64,000 bases of DNA from NCBI GenBank assembly GCA_963790475.1, contig CAWBOS010000012.1, positions 160,001-224,000 of the forward strand. The letters run 5' to 3'. Origin of the DNA: an uncultured delta proteobacterium. GTDB lineage: Bacteria; Desulfobacterota; RBG-13-43-22. Below, one piece after another: positions 10,817 through 14,940 of the stretch. Each line of letters starts with the position of its first letter. Position 1 is the stretch's first letter. Both the position numbers and the translations under genes were made by a program. The notes under the pieces are model-generated. The model worked only from the letters and a program-made list of their open reading frames with translations. It was not told where the DNA came from and made no database searches.

Positions 10817-11209
10817 ATGGAAATATATACATTAACTATTTCATTCCCATATGATGAGGATGATGTCCCTTGGTCAAGGATATTCGAGGTTAAGGAAGAC
10901 TGTACTCTACAAAATCTACATAAGTATATTCAAAAGATAGTAGATTTTGATGATGACCATTTGTATGAGTTTTACATCGGGAAAAATCCTAGAAATAGAG
11001 CTTATGCTGTTCCAAAGAAAACGAAACTAAATGAAATATACCCATTGACTGGCTGCAAATTATATTATCTTTTCGATTTTGGAGATAACTGGTTATTTGA
11101 GATCAAAAAATCAAGAAAGAAAAAAACAGAAAGTAAGCAAACAAAATATCCTGCACTAATTGAATCATCAGGTGTGAACCCAAAGCAGTATCCTGTTTAT
11201 GAAGATTGA
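10817..11209 (+). CDS. pRiA4b ORF-3-like family protein
   Basis: TLQNLHKYIQ..VDFDDDHLYEF and YLFDFGDNW motifs; AT-rich cassette-like gene. Confidence 0.8.
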   Translation: MEIYTLTISFPYDEDDVPWSRIFEVKEDCTLQNLHKYIQKIVDFDDDHLYEFYIGKNPRNRAYAVPKKTKLNEIYPLTGCKLYYLFDFGDNWLFEIKKSRKKKTESKQTKYPALIESSGVNPKQYPVYED

Positions 11210-11212
11210 TGC

Positions 11213-11264
11213 AGCTAACCATGCAGCCGATCTCTTAACTCTCCGGCTGATTGCCATGTTGAGA
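11213..11264 (+). repeat. attC-like site
   Basis: AGCTAAC just after the stop, CAGCCG/CGGCTG stem, GTTGAGA before the next start. Confidence 0.5.
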
Positions 11265-11590
11265 AGAGAGATCAATATGAACGACATCGATATGTCAATT
11301 CAATGGCAAGAAGGTAGCGGCGAGTCGGTAGAAATTGGTTTTCTAAATCCCAACCCGGACAAGCCGGAACCATATTTGAAATATTGTAACATTTGGTGGA
11401 TTCGTAAAAAGTCACCGAAAGCCTATTTTCGTCATTCCCTTGAAAAAGGGAATCCAGTGTTTTTAATAAGTTGAGAATAGCCTGGATTCCCGCCTCCGCG
11501 AGACCTTATGATTGAAAAAGAAAGGCAAGTCTCGAGTTTTCGGATATAGTCTTTTGTAGCAGCAAAAAACAAACCGAAAGGAGACTTGCC

Positions 11591-12657
11591 ATGGAACATG
11601 TTAACAAATTGGATTTTTCGGGTCAATCGATTTACGTAGGACTGGATGTCCATAAGAAGAGTTGGACCGTGAGTATTTTTTCGGAACAATGTGAGCATAA
11701 GACTTTTACCCAACCTCCGAAAACAGAAAAACTGGTCCATTATCTTAAACGCAATTTTCCCGGAGCGGCCTATCAGGCGGTGTATGAAGCCGGCTTCAGC
11801 GGCTTTTGGACTCATGATCAGCTTCGGGAGCAAGGAGTCCATTGTATTGTGGCCAATCCGGCCGATGTTCCGACGACGAATAAAGAACGAACCGGCAAAC
11901 GGGATCCCAGCGATTCCCGGAAGCTGGCCAGGAGCCTCCGGAACAGGGAATTGAAGGGGATATACGTACCGGTCCGTTCGAAACGGGAGGATCGCAGCCT
12001 GGTTCGAACCCGTCAGAGCATGGTGAGAAAGCAAACCCGGTGTAAAAATCAAATTAAGGCGCTCCTTTACTTTTATGGGATTAATCTGCCCGAAGATGTT
12101 GTTGACCGCCATTGGTCTCAAAAATTTCTTCGCTGTCTCGAAAATCTTCGAATGGAGCGGAGCAGTGGAGATAGGGCCCTCAAGGCCCACTTGGACGAAC
12201 TCCATCATCTCCAAGAGATCATCGCTTCTTTAAACCGGTCCATTATTTTGCTGTCCCGGGAAGCAGAATATCGCGAAAGGGTCCGGTTGTTAAAAACGGT
12301 CCCATCAGTACCCTGACGGCCATGATTTTCTTGACCGAGCTTGGTGAGTTGGCCCGATTTGCCTCTTTGGACAAGCTGGCCAGTTATGTCGGACTAATCC
12401 CCGATGTCGAATCCACTGGGGAGACCGAACATATAAAAAACTTAACCCATCGGCGAAACCCCCAGTTAAGGGCTTTGCTCATCGAAGCCGCTTGGGTGGC
12501 TGCCCGGAAGGATCCGGTCCTGCTCCTGGCCTTTAATGAATATTGCCAACGGATGAAGAAAACCAGGGCCATTATTAAAATTGCTCGGAAACTGCTCAAC
12601 CGCATTCGTTATGTATTAAAGAACCAGGTAGAATATGTTCCTGGGGTAGTTCAATAA
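11591..12657 (+). pseudogene. IS110-family transposase/recombinase, frameshifted near 12303
   Basis: YVGLDVHKKSW, YEAG, KRDPSDS (DEDD RuvC-like), C-terminal ASYVGLIP..ESTG, RNPQLR; split at the KTVP(G)I motif. Confidence 0.9.
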
Positions 12658-12689
12658 TAACTTGAAGAGGTGCTTCCAATCCGATAAAT

Positions 12690-13020
12690 TGGCTCGTGGG
12701 CGTAAACGGTCCGTCATTCCTGCAGCTCATCGGTAGAGGGTGTCTGCTCTTCGCGAGACTCCGTGCCCACGATTTTAATATAATCAAGATGATGCAGCTA
12801 TCTGATCCAGATATGTCTGCTGATAGAAGGTTGATTTTAAAGATTGGTTCAGCCCTTAAGTTTGGTTTCAATTGCTCGACGGATCGGCTTCCGGGCTAAT
12901 CTCCTGCGGTTAAAAGAGAATAGCCCCAATTGGCCTCTTCATGGATGGCTGCCTGTTTCTATCGCAGGTAGTTCAGCCTCCTCAGGAGATCATACAGGTA
13001 GCCATCCATGAAGAGGTTTA
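12690..13020 (+). ncRNA. Predicted bridge/seek RNA of the IS1111-like element
   Basis: Stem TCGTGGGC..ACGG / CCGTGCCCACGA encloses an internal loop whose strands match both sides of the insertion site; 22-bp stem 12934-12955/12995-13016. Confidence 0.7.
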
Positions 13021-13395
13021 TCTTAAAAACCTTAAAAACCATTTAAAAGTCATTCTCTAATAAAAAAGACTTGCTTTTCAACATAGAGGAATGACGACGA
13101 AATATTCTATCCAAATTTGAGTAGAATTCTATTCCTAAGTTACTAACGGCCAGCAGTGCTGCGGTCATTGCGGAGTTCCGGGTACTGATCATGGGCAATA
13201 TGCATACAAGACTGAATGTACCATCTGTGGCTGTGTGTATGGAACAAATGGATCCGATATGCACGAAAGGCGATGTCCCGAATGCCAGAAAGGGGCTGCC
13301 GGGATAAAGTACTGGAGGACTATCCCCGGCTAAACGCAGGGTGACTACGGATATGGCCGAATCGATCAATCAGATAACCCAGGACTTTAATTTTA

Positions 13396-14940
13396 TTATC
13401 CAAACAATCCGCTTCCGCCCAGTTCATCCCACAGCAACCGAAACTCACGCCGATAATCATTCTCGGCCCGGGTGTTGACATCAAAAATCATAGTGGCCCG
13501 CCTGACGGCGTCATAGGACGGCCAGTCGGGAGTGAGGTCCGAATTCGGGACCCCGGTTTTGGCGAAGTTGGTCCAGACGGCGGCGAAACGGTCCACCAGC
13601 AATTTGCCTTCCCGGTCTCCGCAATCGTTGATGGGACCGCGGGGATCATGCACAGCCGCACCCACATCCACCCCATGAACGGCGCCGAATTGGCCGTTAT
13701 AAGATTTGACCGTCTTTTCCCACAGGTAATAATAAACAGGGGCGCCATTCTGAGCCGCCTTCAATTCCGCCTGTTTAATGGCGCTATAACGGAAACCCCG
13801 ATCAGTGGCAATGCGGGCCTGGATCAGGAACGGCGCCACCTGGGGATAAGTTTCCCGATAGAGTTTATAAACCCGGCTGGCATTTCCCTCAAATTGTTGG
13901 TCCAGATTCTGTTTGAGTTGAGCTTCACTGAGATCGAAGTTGGCCATGCCGATAGCCGCATCGTCCAGGGTCGTGCCGATGATGACCGGAATATGGGCAG
14001 ACTCCGGAGGTGCCGTTGGATGAAAGGGATGATGAGGCAATACCTCACTGCCGATGACCGGGACGAATCGTCCCACATCAAACCCCAAACTGGTCTGGGC
14101 AGCCAGGATTTGAGTGAAAGGCAGATTCTGCAATTGGGGGATATTCTTTTTGTCGATACCCAGCGCTTTTAAAAGGGCCTCGGTATTCCTGGTGGCATTT
14201 TCCGGTTCTGCCAGACGCAAGGAAGAGCCGCTTTGCACCCCGGCGCGATGAAAGAGACCTTTGGCCGAAGGCATGGCCAGGAGGGTGCTGGTTTTAGCAC
14301 CGCCTCCGGATTGGCCGAAAATCATCACCCGGTTCGAGTCGCCCCCGAAGTGTTCGATATTGGTTTGCACCCATTGCAGCGCGGCTACCATGTCCATGGC
14401 CCCGACCACGCCGGCATATTTGAACTCCTCGGGCGCCCCCAGGTCGGCCAGGTGCAAAAATCCGAAGGCGGCCAGGCGATGATTGACAGAGACCATGACC
14501 ACATCGTCGTGGCGAGCCGCCGGTTCCCCGTCAAATCCAAAGGCATTGCCGGAGCCCGTTACAAAACCGCCGCCGTGAAATATGACCATCACCGCCCTTT
14601 TGGCGCTGTCGTTGACACTTCTCGTCCAGACATTCAAGGCCAGACAATCTTCGCCGATGCCTCCTGGTTGCCTGTCCCACAGAATGAGATTAGTGTAATC
14701 GCCTCGTCGGTCTGCCGGAGTCTGCGGGCTGATTTGACCGTAATTGAAGGTGTCCTGAACACCTGTCCAGGATGCCGGCGGTTGGGGCGGCCGGTAGCGG
14801 TTTTTACCTTCCGTAGAGGCCCCATATCGGATACCTTTAAAAGTTTTTACGCCTTGGTGATTAATACCGCGGACCTTACCATATTGCGTTTCTACCACTG
14901 GGAATAATTTGGCTTCCATAACCGATGCCGGTGTGTTCAT
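13396..14940 (-). CDS. Type-B carboxylesterase (para-nitrobenzyl esterase-like)
   Basis: FKGIRYG, EDCLALNVWT, HGGGF, FGQSGG, GAVHG; start at 14940 after AAGGAG. Confidence 0.92.
   Translation of the reverse strand: MNTPASVMEAKLFPVVETQYGKVRGINHQGVKTFKGIRYGASTEGKNRYRPPQPPASWTGVQDTFNYGQISPQTPADRRGDYTNLILWDRQPGGIGEDCLALNVWTRSVNDSAKRAVMVIFHGGGFVTGSGNAFGFDGEPAARHDDVVMVSVNHRLAAFGFLHLADLGAPEEFKYAGVVGAMDMVAALQWVQTNIEHFGGDSNRVMIFGQSGGGAKTSTLLAMPSAKGLFHRAGVQSGSSLRLAEPENATRNTEALLKALGIDKKNIPQLQNLPFTQILAAQTSLGFDVGRFVPVIGSEVLPHHPFHPTAPPESAHIPVIIGTTLDDAAIGMANFDLSEAQLKQNLDQQFEGNASRVYKLYRETYPQVAPFLIQARIATDRGFRYSAIKQAELKAAQNGAPVYYYLWEKTVKSYNGQFGAVHGVDVGAAVHDPRGPINDCGDREGKLLVDRFAAVWTNFAKTGVPNSDLTPDWPSYDAVRRATMIFDVNTRAENDYRREFRLLWDELGGSGLFG

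What the first reader, a model, noticed from the sequence alone, without database searches (positions are those of the whole stretch)
11501..13088. IS1111-like element whose non-coding RNA spells out its REP target (readable bridge/seek RNA guide)
Seen: the IS splits a REP. Downstream of the transposase, a stem (12694-12709 / 12761-12772) with inner stem GCAG/CTGC encloses an internal loop. One strand, CGTCATTCCT (12712-21), is the exact reverse complement of the right junction AGGAATGACG (13087-96). The other, CTTCGCGAG (12749-57), matches the left junction CTCCGCGAG (11494-11502) with one U:G-compatible difference. Both include AG, suggesting an AG core. Established: IS110/IS1111 recombinases use a non-coding RNA pairing with both target strands, and IS1111-type elements carry it 3' of the transposase. 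Inference: a REP-programmed bridge recombinase. Caveats: the intact REP copy lacks the extra A (CCGCG-GGAATG), no donor-binding loop was identified, and this transposase copy is frameshifted.
Basis: partly seen in the sequence, partly recalled or inferred. Interest (0 to 1): 0.85.

Follow-up and report, generated by a model that had tools for sequence, protein, structure and literature searches.

The report
REP-targeting IS1111 element with guide RNA
This is a dead copy of an IS1111-type jumping gene whose own small RNA spells out the repeated hairpin it landed in; it is a clear natural example of the RNA-guided "seekRNA/bridge RNA" insertion described in 2024, not a new kind of system.

Summary

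It is an IS110-family insertion sequence of the IS1111 type, and its transposase gene is frameshifted. It sits in a REP hairpin, with no target duplication when compared with 9 empty copies.

Its 3' non-coding region holds a target-binding loop (12694-12772). The two arms of this loop pair with the right flank (10 of 10) and the left flank (8 Watson-Crick pairs plus 1 G:U, of 9).

The decisive test passed:
- Sister copies in the same genome carry different guides that match their different flanks.
- Across 28 and 30 distinct guide classes from related loci, own guide-flank pairing beat all 10,000 permutations.

Its 3' arm follows the right-end sequence in 68 of 68 loci.

The "missing A" is a systematic junction class, seen at 31 of 59 distinct right junctions.

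Verdict: a new member of a known kind (Siddiquee 2024; Durrant 2024). Expression of the RNA was not shown. Interest is modest.

The parts
11333..11500 (+). Left part of a ~214-bp repeated element that carries the REP hairpin. ATTCCC is at 11486-11491 and the loop GCCTCCGCG at 11492-11500. The left target is CTCCGCG, 11494-11500.
   Evidence: BLAST in the own genome finds about a dozen copies at 91-98% identity. Nine uninterrupted copies read CTCCGCG|GGAATGACG.
11501..13087 (+). IS1111-type insertion sequence, 1587 bp, inserted without target duplication.
   Evidence: Comparison with 9 empty sites fixes both ends. Four further copies or remnants share the ends AGACCTTATGA... and ...CAACATAGA.
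11501..11518 (+). Left end: a 7-nt terminal extension AGACCTT (11501-11507), then the subterminal inverted repeat ATGATTGAAAA (11508-11518). A second repeat block lies at 11520-11532.
   Evidence: Read. The repeat finder pair I11 (11520-11532 with 13067-13079) is 13 nt and 92% complementary.
11591..12316 (+). N-terminal part of the transposase (DEDD/RuvC-like). It is cut short by a frameshift: 4 nt are missing between 12303 and 12304.
   Evidence: PF01548, 56.5 bits. Intact copies read CCCGGGGATC where this copy reads CCCATC.
12322..12657 (+). C-terminal part of the transposase in another frame, with the motif GLIPDVESTG.
   Evidence: PF02371, 53.9 bits.
12694..12772 (+). Target-binding loop of the seekRNA/bridge RNA. 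Outer stem: 12696-12701 with 12765-12770. Right-target guide: 12712-12721. Inner stem: GCAG 12722-12725 with CTGC 12744-12747. Left-target guide: 12749-12757.
   Evidence: The scaffold was parsed in 73 of 85 sequences.
12782..12836 (+). Donor-binding loop. Outer stem: AATCAA 12782-12787 with TTGATT 12831-12836. 5' arm: GATGAT 12788-12793. Inner stem: GCAG 12794-12797 with CTGC 12817-12820. 3' arm: TGATAGAAGG 12821-12830, in which ATAGAAG at 12823-12829 equals the right end ATAGA plus AG.
   Evidence: Conserved in relatives. The apical helix shows compensatory changes (helix 6). The 3' arm follows the right-end variant in 68 of 68 loci. The outer stem is only weakly supported (helix 5, 81.9% paired, no change on both sides).
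12934..13016 (+). Long hairpin (23-bp arms) inside an extra ~200-nt module that short-NCR relatives lack. Its role is unknown.
   Evidence: the repeat finder pair I1, 96% complementary. Equivalent long hairpins with different stem sequences occur in at least 11 of the 21 distinct long-NCR sequences folded.
13067..13087 (+). Right end: repeat block AGACTTGC, subterminal inverted repeat TTTTCAACAT (13075-13084), and a 3-nt terminal extension AGA (13085-13087). TTGCTT at 13072-13077 is the -35-like half of a promoter formed when the ends are joined.
   Evidence: With the ends abutted, a -35-like hexamer, a 17-nt spacer and TATGAT appear in 62 of 62 loci (17 nt in 61, 18 nt in 1).
13088..13140 (+). 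Right part of the interrupted 214-bp repeat. The right target GGAATGACG lies at 13088-13096 and is the 3' arm of the REP hairpin.

Best explanation
Window 11501-13087 is a non-autonomous copy (frameshifted transposase) of an IS1111-group, IS110-family insertion sequence. It inserted between the loop and the 3' stem arm of a REP hairpin.

Downstream of the transposase gene it encodes a two-loop guide RNA of about 145-160 nt, of the kind called long seekRNA or bridge RNA.

- Target loop. [quoted passage not shown] The two pairings overlap at the crossover dinucleotide.
- Donor loop. The 3' arm (AUAGAAG) matches the joined right end plus AG. A weaker 5' arm (AAGA/AAGG) faces CCTT of the left end.

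The DEDD recombinase bound to this RNA would bring the circularised element and the REP together and recombine them.

Shown here: the anatomy, the family hallmarks, guide-target and guide-donor covariation, and structure covariation.

Inferred from the literature: that the RNA is made, that it binds the protein, and that it directs recombination.
For: - Family. Pfam PF01548 plus PF02371. The intact sister protein scores 198.8 bits on NCBIfam NF033542, 'IS110 family RNA-guided transposase', against a cut-off of 140.
- Sites. 9 of the 12 host-repeat copies examined are empty sites reading CTCCGCG|GGAATGACG. The other 3 carry an 11-nt remnant of the left end.
- Own-genome natural reprogramming. 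The copies on C13 and C1 (88% identical) carry CGTCACCCCT and CTTCACTAG. Their flanks are AGGGGTGACG (10 of 10) and TTTCACCAG (7 Watson-Crick plus 1 G:U, of 9).
- Relatives. 80 loci were kept of 107 relatives found, and the scaffold was parsed in 73 of 85 sequences.
- Right guide. In 28 distinct classes, own pairing averages 8.39 of 10 against 5.12 for cross pairings. 0 of 10,000 permutations reached it.
- Left guide. In 30 classes, own pairing averages 5.03 of 7 variable positions against 2.17. 0 of 10,000 permutations reached it.
- Per-position pairing gives a right guide of 9-10 nt and a left guide of about 7 nt including AG.
- Structure on 44 sequences. 92.8% of cells are paired, against 34-39% when partners are slid. 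The covariation score is 0.272, against 0.125 in shuffles (0 of 500 reached it) and 0.036-0.070 when slid.
- Donor loop. ATAGAAG, ATAAAAG and ATAGGAG go with right ends ATAGA, ATAAA and ATAGG in 68 of 68 loci.
- The arm order (top-strand complement 5' of the bottom-strand match), the downstream non-coding region, the subterminal repeats with 7- and 3-nt extensions, the GL-P----S(t)G motif and the absence of a duplication all match Siddiquee 2024.
- A junction promoter appears in silico in 62 of 62 loci.
Against: - No evidence of transcription. Metatranscriptome contigs gave only short fragments from relatives. No sigma-70-like promoter was found on the + strand inside the element.
- The fold energy of the two-loop region is ordinary (z -0.62).
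- The left 9-mer match alone is at chance level.
- No Rfam family matched.
- This copy cannot make transposase.
- The intact REP is one base shorter than the guide's ideal target. The own genome holds 0 unoccupied ideal sites and 15 sites in the REP form.
- The 5' arm of the donor loop is poorly complementary in this copy (AAGA facing CCTT), and covariation could not test it because the left end hardly varies.
- The outer stem of the donor loop shows no change on both sides.
- The transposase is 356 aa, slightly above the 330-350 aa quoted for IS1111.
Confidence: 0.93

Rival explanations
1. The matches are a by-product of REP content. On this view the non-coding region merely captured a REP fragment, and the resemblance to the flanks has no guiding function.
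For: CGTCATTCC is also the left arm of the REP-type repeat itself (11430-11438, pair I15). GGAATGACG occurs 137 times in the genome. The left 9-mer match is at chance level.
Against: The two segments sit in fixed positions of a scaffold conserved across phyla, while their sequences change with the flanks. This includes targets unlike this REP, such as AGATTACGCA, AGCATAAAAT and ATGAGGCACG. 0 of 10,000 permutations reached the observed pairing on either side.
Confidence: 0.02
2. Only the first loop is a guide (a short seekRNA). On this view the second loop is not a donor-binding loop but a structural, processing or regulatory element, and the protein recognises the ends through the subterminal repeats.
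For: Siddiquee 2024 found that a 70-100 nt seekRNA holding only the target matches was sufficient for ISEc11, and left the role of the long form open. Here the 5' arm of the second loop is weakly complementary, and its outer stem lacks compensatory changes.
Against: The 3' arm equals the right end plus AG and follows three right-end variants in 68 of 68 loci, in several separate lineages. The second loop has the same GCAG/CUGC-closed design as the target loop. Durrant 2024 reports donor-binding nucleotides in IS1111 bridge RNAs.
Confidence: 0.12
3. The structured region is a transcription or translation control element for the transposase, and the protein alone chooses the target.
For: It lies directly after the stop codon, and the whole non-coding region folds unusually well (z -4.74).
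Against: It does not explain why the loop arms change with the flanks. Protein-only recognition could not follow the 28 distinct right-guide programs found among transposases that share 54-87% identity with the query.
Confidence: 0.02

Closest known systems
ISEc11, ISKpn4, ISPst6 and ISPa11 (IS1111 family) with their seekRNAs (Siddiquee et al. 2024, PMC11187229; sections 6, 9, 10, 13 and 14 and passages read)
   Same: - DEDD transposase with the C-terminal GL-P----S(t)G motif.
- Long non-coding region downstream of the gene.
- Subterminal inverted repeats with 7-nt and 3-nt extensions.
- RNA with the top-strand complement 5' of the bottom-strand match, the two overlapping in the target.
- No duplication on insertion.
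- Natural reprogramming between close relatives.
- A long RNA form of 145-170 nt, which fits the two loops here.
   Different: - No sequence comparison with these elements was made here.
- The targets differ.
- This clade comes from uncultured soil and sediment MAGs labelled delta proteobacterium, Nitrospirota and Ignavibacteriota.
- The transposase is 356 aa.
- Some members carry an extra ~200-nt module with a long hairpin.
- Nothing here is experimental.
IS621 bridge RNA (Durrant et al. 2024, PMC11208160, passages read; PDB 8wt6)
   Same: Two internal loops, each with a left guide pairing the bottom strand and a right guide pairing the top strand. The crossover dinucleotide is included in both pairings. 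A promoter forms at the joined ends.
   Different: - The RNA lies in the right end after the gene, not in the left end.
- The order of the arms within the loop is reversed.
- The crossover dinucleotide is AG, not CT.
- The subterminal repeats are long.
- The proteins are only distantly alike: phmmer E 1.5e-5 to IS621 and 4.5e-8 to the ISCro4 transposase 9t56.
REP-targeting IS110-family elements ISPpu9, ISPpu10 and ISPa11 (Pares-Guillen et al. 2025, PMC12288879, abstract only; Tobes & Pareja 2006, seen only as a reference)
   Same: Insertion into repetitive extragenic palindromes. [quoted passage not shown] Copies and fragments are scattered in one genome.
   Different: [quoted passage not shown] Here the RNA carries clear guides, and a junction promoter is predicted. 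Relatedness to these elements was not tested.

Membership tests
IS1111 group of the IS110 family | DEDD (RuvC-like) N-terminal domain plus a PF02371 C-terminal domain | tested here: met
   PF01548 at 56.5 bits and PF02371 at 53.9 bits. NF033542 at 198.8 bits against a cut-off of 140 for the intact sister copy.
IS1111 group of the IS110 family | C-terminal GL-P----S(t)G motif (Siddiquee 2024) | tested here: met
   GLIPDVESTG in the window's second frame. GLIPDVESSG in the intact copies.
IS1111 group of the IS110 family | Subterminal inverted repeats with asymmetric terminal extensions, usually 7 bp on the left and 3 bp on the right | tested here: met
   The ends read AGACCTT|ATGATTGAAAA... and ...TTTTCAACAT|AGA. 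The repeat has a one-base indel, and a second 13-nt block is 92% complementary (pair I11).
IS1111 group of the IS110 family | The longer non-coding region lies downstream of the transposase gene | tested here: met
   90 nt upstream (11501-11590) against 430 nt downstream (12658-13087).
IS1111 group of the IS110 family | seekRNA with the top-strand complement 5' of the bottom-strand match, the two overlapping in the target | tested here: met
   [quoted passage not shown] 12749-57 has the sense of the left flank. The same order holds in the 73 parsed sequences.
IS1111 group of the IS110 family | Site-specific insertion with no added bases | tested here: met
   9 empty sites read CTCCGCG|GGAATGACG. 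The occupied site adds exactly 1587 bp.
IS1111 group of the IS110 family | Transposase of 330-350 aa | tested here: inconclusive
   The intact sister copies encode 356 aa from a GTG start. This is slightly above the quoted range, and the true start is uncertain.
IS1111 group of the IS110 family | The RNA co-purifies with the transposase and is needed for circle formation and insertion | not testable with these tools
   Metatranscriptome contigs were uninformative.
Bridge RNA as defined for IS621 | A target loop whose two arms covary with the two target flanks | tested here: met
   0 of 10,000 permutations reached the observed pairing on either side.
Bridge RNA as defined for IS621 | A donor loop whose two arms pair with the element's joined ends | tested here: inconclusive
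   The left-donor arm follows the right end in 68 of 68 loci. The right-donor arm is only AAG(G/A) facing CCTT. Two lineages show matched changes, many show an A-C mismatch, and the left end varies too little to test it.
Bridge RNA as defined for IS621 | Encoded in the left end, upstream of the recombinase gene | tested here: not met
   Here it lies in the right end, which is the IS1111 arrangement.
REP (repetitive extragenic palindrome) as the target | A short imperfect palindrome repeated many times in the genome | tested here: met
   ATTCCC-N8-GGGAAT occurs 62 times. TTTCGCCGGAATGAC occurs 54 times. The GGACCCC...GGGGTGAC type occurs 59 times. This particular hairpin lies inside a ~214-bp repeat of about a dozen copies.

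The most novel reading that the evidence does not exclude
In this clade the donor's crossover dinucleotide (AG) need not match the target, and the two junctions inherit different versions.

- The left junction keeps AG in 65 of 65 readable loci.
- 31 of 59 distinct right junctions keep the target's own base or bases instead (G/GG where an empty site is known, as in this copy), so the A is missing.
- One own-genome remnant shows the opposite pattern, GG at the left junction.

This asymmetry would be a natural record of strand-biased integration, in which one strand is transferred and replication fixes the result. That is the model argued in a 2025 preprint against the two-strand Holliday-junction model.

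In addition, two copies at different sites share the same frameshift. This implies that dead copies are moved in trans while using their own guide RNA.
Probability: 0.25. Interest if true: 0.55.

Novelty: new member of a known kind. Interest (0 to 1): 0.3.

Why it matters
RNA-guided IS110/IS1111 recombinases are being developed as programmable tools for DNA insertion.

This window adds no new principle. It does give a well-resolved natural clade with:
- at least 28 distinct right-guide and 30 distinct left-guide programs on one conserved scaffold;
- a simple two-internal-loop design for an IS1111-type element;
- readable guide lengths;
- natural data on how far the crossover dinucleotide tolerates mismatch.

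For genome annotation, it shows that the 3' non-coding region of such elements can be read directly to predict their REP targets.

Tried and rejected
- Rfam. No family matched at E up to 10 in 11000-13600 apart from chance-level hits.
- Fold energy. The two-loop region is not more stable than shuffles, so energy was dropped as evidence.
- Expression. The run search gave 5 metatranscriptome runs holding 6-10% of the sampled words. Laying 4 of them showed only short contig fragments at 90-99% likeness, clearly from relatives. One contig skips 12846-13058, as short-NCR relatives do. This says nothing about expression or habitat.
- Promoters and terminators. The scan found 4 promoter-like sites, all on the minus strand, against 2.6 expected. 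It found nothing useful for the RNA.
- First regex. My first strict regex for the loop found only 11 of 80 loci and was replaced by looser ones. The loose GTGGG...CCCAC search also hit inside the transposase gene in L021 and L024.
- Loci with no parse or no end:
  - 12 of 85 sequences were never parsed (L024, L029, L034, L042, L084, L085, L089, L090, L091, L093, L094, L095).
  - 3 parsed loci had no recognisable right end.
  - The left end was found by the first regex in 52 of 73, and in 13 more. L032 was cut at the locus edge. The rest had no left end in the held sequence.
- Poor guide matches. Several parsed loci pair poorly with their right flank and were kept in the counts: C15 at 4 of 10 in the allowed registers (its flank has two extra bases), L044 at 5, and L033, L035, L047 and L050 at 6.
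- Structure alignment. I passed 44 sequences: W, C13, C15 and 41 of the 46 distinct L-locus sequences. I dropped L017 (donor loop deleted), L076 and L078 (a long insert in the apical part that my fixed window would cut), L075 (near-identical to L074) and L087 (no right end found).
- Crossover models. I tried to fit one two-base model to all own-genome junctions and failed. W fits a target core of GG. The C13 and C1 copies need a REP variant with an extra A. Right junctions in the genome show 0, 1 (A or T) or 3 extra bases. This is left unexplained.
- Right-donor arm. Covariation could not be tested because the left end is nearly invariant.
- Supplementary files of the papers were not opened. 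Supplementary figures of Siddiquee 2024 and Supplementary Table 5 of Durrant 2024 may already list relatives of this clade.
- I did not compare the element with ISfinder entries, because none are held here. No ISfinder name can therefore be given.
Full report
**Observation.** CGTCATTCCT (12712-12721) is the exact reverse complement of AGGAATGACG (13087-13096). CTTCGCGAG (12749-12757) differs from CTCCGCGAG (11494-11502) at one position, where a guide U would face a G on the bottom strand. The two segments lie on opposite sides of an internal loop. That loop is closed outside by 12694-12709 with 12761-12772 and inside by GCAG with CTGC. The repeat finder reports the 10-nt match independently (pair I16). 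The 10-mer occurs nowhere else in the 64-kb window (2 matches, 0.13 expected). The 9-mer with one mismatch is at chance level by itself (10 matches, 10.8 expected).

**What the element is.** Two open frames, 11591-12316 and 12322-12657, carry PF01548 and PF02371. The own genome (6.34 Mb, 20 contigs) holds:
- a 99% identical copy with an internal deletion of about 135 bp, at contig 12 near 1,483 kb;
- two 88% identical full copies, on contigs 13 and 1;
- a 77% identical 5'-truncated copy, on contig 15;
- several smaller remnants.

The contig 13 and contig 1 copies encode an intact 356-aa protein. It scores 198.8 bits on NCBIfam NF033542, "IS110 family RNA-guided transposase". The window copy lacks 4 nt between 12303 and 12304, so it is dead. 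The 1,483-kb copy shares this frameshift yet sits in a different site. This suggests that the defective lineage moved after it was broken, using a transposase supplied in trans.

**Boundaries and target.** The flanks belong to a ~214-bp repeat with about a dozen copies. Of the 12 copies I examined, 9 are uninterrupted and read ...ATTCCCGCCTCCGCG|GGAATGACG.... This fixes the insert as 11501-13087 (1587 bp) with no duplication. It lies between the loop and the 3' arm of an ATTCCC-N8-GGGAAT hairpin. The genome has several such REP families: 62 copies of ATTCCC-N8-GGGAAT, 54 of TTTCGCCGGAATGAC, and 59 of the GGACCCC...GGGGTGAC type. The ends read AGACCTT|ATGATTGAAAA... and ...TTTTCAACAT|AGA. These are subterminal inverted repeats with a 7-nt left and a 3-nt right extension.

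**Covariation, the decisive test.** Within the genome, the 88% copies carry CGTCACCCCT and CTTCACTAG in the same loop positions. Their flanks are AGGGGTGACG (10 of 10) and TTTCACCAG.

A scan of one genome per species found 107 relatives, of which 80 loci were kept. They share 54-87% protein identity with the query and come from MAGs labelled delta proteobacterium, Nitrospirota, Ignavibacteriota and others. The scaffold GTGGGy...ACG-[guide]-GCAG...CTGC-[guide]AG-ACU..rCCCAC was parsed in 73 of 85 sequences. I anchored flanks on the conserved ends, found in 70 loci on the right and 52 on the left, and took one locus per distinct guide. The results:
- Right guide: 28 classes pair with their own flank at 8.39 of 10 on average, against 5.12 for all cross pairings.
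- Left guide: 30 classes pair at 5.03 of 7 variable positions, against 2.17.
- No permutation out of 10,000 reached either value.

Pairing is high over 9-10 nt on the right and about 7 nt, including AG, on the left. It falls to background beyond that. Targets include sequences unlike this REP, so capture of a REP fragment does not explain the matches.

**Structure.** I aligned 44 distinct sequences. RNAalifold predicted the target-loop stems and the apical helix of a second loop. For the structure I wrote:
- 92.8% of cells pair, against 34-39% when partners are slid.
- The covariation score is 0.272, against 0.125 in shuffles (0 of 500 reached it) and 0.036-0.070 when slid.
- Clear compensatory changes occur: C-G to U-A in the outer stem in 17 sequences, G-C to A-U in the inner stem in 6, and many in both apical helices.
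- The outer stem of the second loop is weak: 81.9% paired, with no change on both sides.

**The donor loop.** At 12782-12836 there is a second internal loop with the same GCAG/CUGC closure. Its 3' arm holds ATAGAAG, which is the last five bases of the right end plus AG, the sequence formed when the ends are joined. Where relatives have right ends ATAAA or ATAGG, the arm reads ATAAAAG or ATAGGAG. Concordance is 68 of 68 loci, and the two variants each occur in several lineages. This arm corresponds to the left donor guide defined for IS621. The 5' arm (AAGG or AAGA) faces CCTT of the left end. Two lineages with a changed left end show matched changes, but many, including this copy, have an A-C mismatch. 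That side remains unproven. With the ends abutted, a -35-like TTGNNT, a spacer and TATGNT appear in 62 of 62 loci, the spacer being 17 nt in 61 and 18 nt in 1. This agrees with the junction promoter described for these families.

**The missing A.** The guide's ideal target is left target, AG, right target. The intact REP has G where AG is expected.
- This is not peculiar to this copy. Of 59 distinct right junctions, 31 start the guide match on the last base of the element, as here, and 28 start just after it.
- The left junction has AG in all 65 loci where it could be read.
- One own-genome remnant has GG instead.
- The window copy fits a model in which the donor core is AG, the target core is GG, the left junction keeps the donor version and the right junction keeps the target version.
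- The contig 13 and contig 1 copies instead need a rare REP variant with an extra A. Such variants exist.
- I could not fit one model to all junctions and leave this open.
- A 2025 preprint (abstract read) argues for single-strand insertion in an IS110 element, which could produce such an asymmetry.

**Comparison with what is known.** Siddiquee et al. 2024 (sections 6, 9, 10, 13 and 14 and passages read) define the IS1111 hallmarks and the seekRNA. Apart from a slightly long transposase, every sequence-level hallmark is met here, including the order of the two matches. Durrant et al. 2024 (passages read) predicted bridge RNAs in the right end of 93% of IS1111 elements. [quoted passage not shown] REP targeting by this family is long known (ISPpu9 abstract; Tobes & Pareja 2006, seen only as a citation). 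The finding is therefore a new member of a known kind.

**Limits.**
- No evidence of transcription was obtained.
- No ISfinder comparison was possible.
- Paper supplements were not read.

Noticed in passing
window 12846-13058 (hairpin arms 12934-12956 and 12994-13016): An extra ~200-nt module lies between the guide RNA and the right end and contains a 23-bp-arm hairpin. At least 11 of the 21 distinct long-NCR sequences folded carry a long hairpin at the same place with different stem sequences. Relatives with a 135-191 nt distance lack the module. It may be a processing or termination element.
   Followed up: partly
own genome, outside the window: L096 (G000:C12:1576800-1579300) and copies on contigs 6, 10, 12 and 15: A 2.16-kb repeat occurs in 4-5 near-identical copies. 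It consists of the same ~214-bp REP-bearing element followed by ~1.95 kb encoding a 552-aa protein. That protein has no Pfam or NCBIfam hit, and its atlas neighbours are all 'hypothetical protein' clusters. It may be an unclassified mobile element.
   Followed up: partly
own genome C12:~318,018-318,089, C12:1,576,949-1,577,065 and C6:339,812-339,928: Three copies of the host repeat carry the first 11 nt of the element's left end at the exact insertion point, after which the REP resumes. This looks like deletion of the element between two ATGA microhomologies, followed by copying of the larger 2.16-kb unit.
   Followed up: partly
window 12303/12304 and own genome C12:1,483,050-1,484,528: The window copy and a copy at another site share the same 4-nt frameshift. 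The second also has a ~135-bp internal deletion. This implies that a transposase-dead lineage was moved in trans.
   Followed up: partly
own genome C12:~755,200-755,480 (minus strand): A remnant with the left end and 5' gene part has GG, not AG, before the left end. It is joined directly to the REP's right arm by an internal deletion.
   Followed up: no
own genome C13:~444,747-445,044 (minus strand): A 5'-truncated copy keeps the tail of the gene, both RNA loops and the right end, but lacks the extra hairpin module. It has its own guide pair and T as the first flank base.
   Followed up: no
window 10817-11206 and 11199-11474: The upstream gene is a PRiA4_ORF3-like protein (PF07929, 69 bits). 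The next open frame (91 aa, no Pfam hit) runs into the 214-bp repeat, so its 3' end may be repeat-derived.
   Followed up: no
related loci L016-L095: 11 of the 28 distinct right guides contain GTCA and so target ...TGAC-type REP arms. These come from MAGs labelled as several phyla, so this REP type and this IS clade seem to travel together.
   Followed up: no
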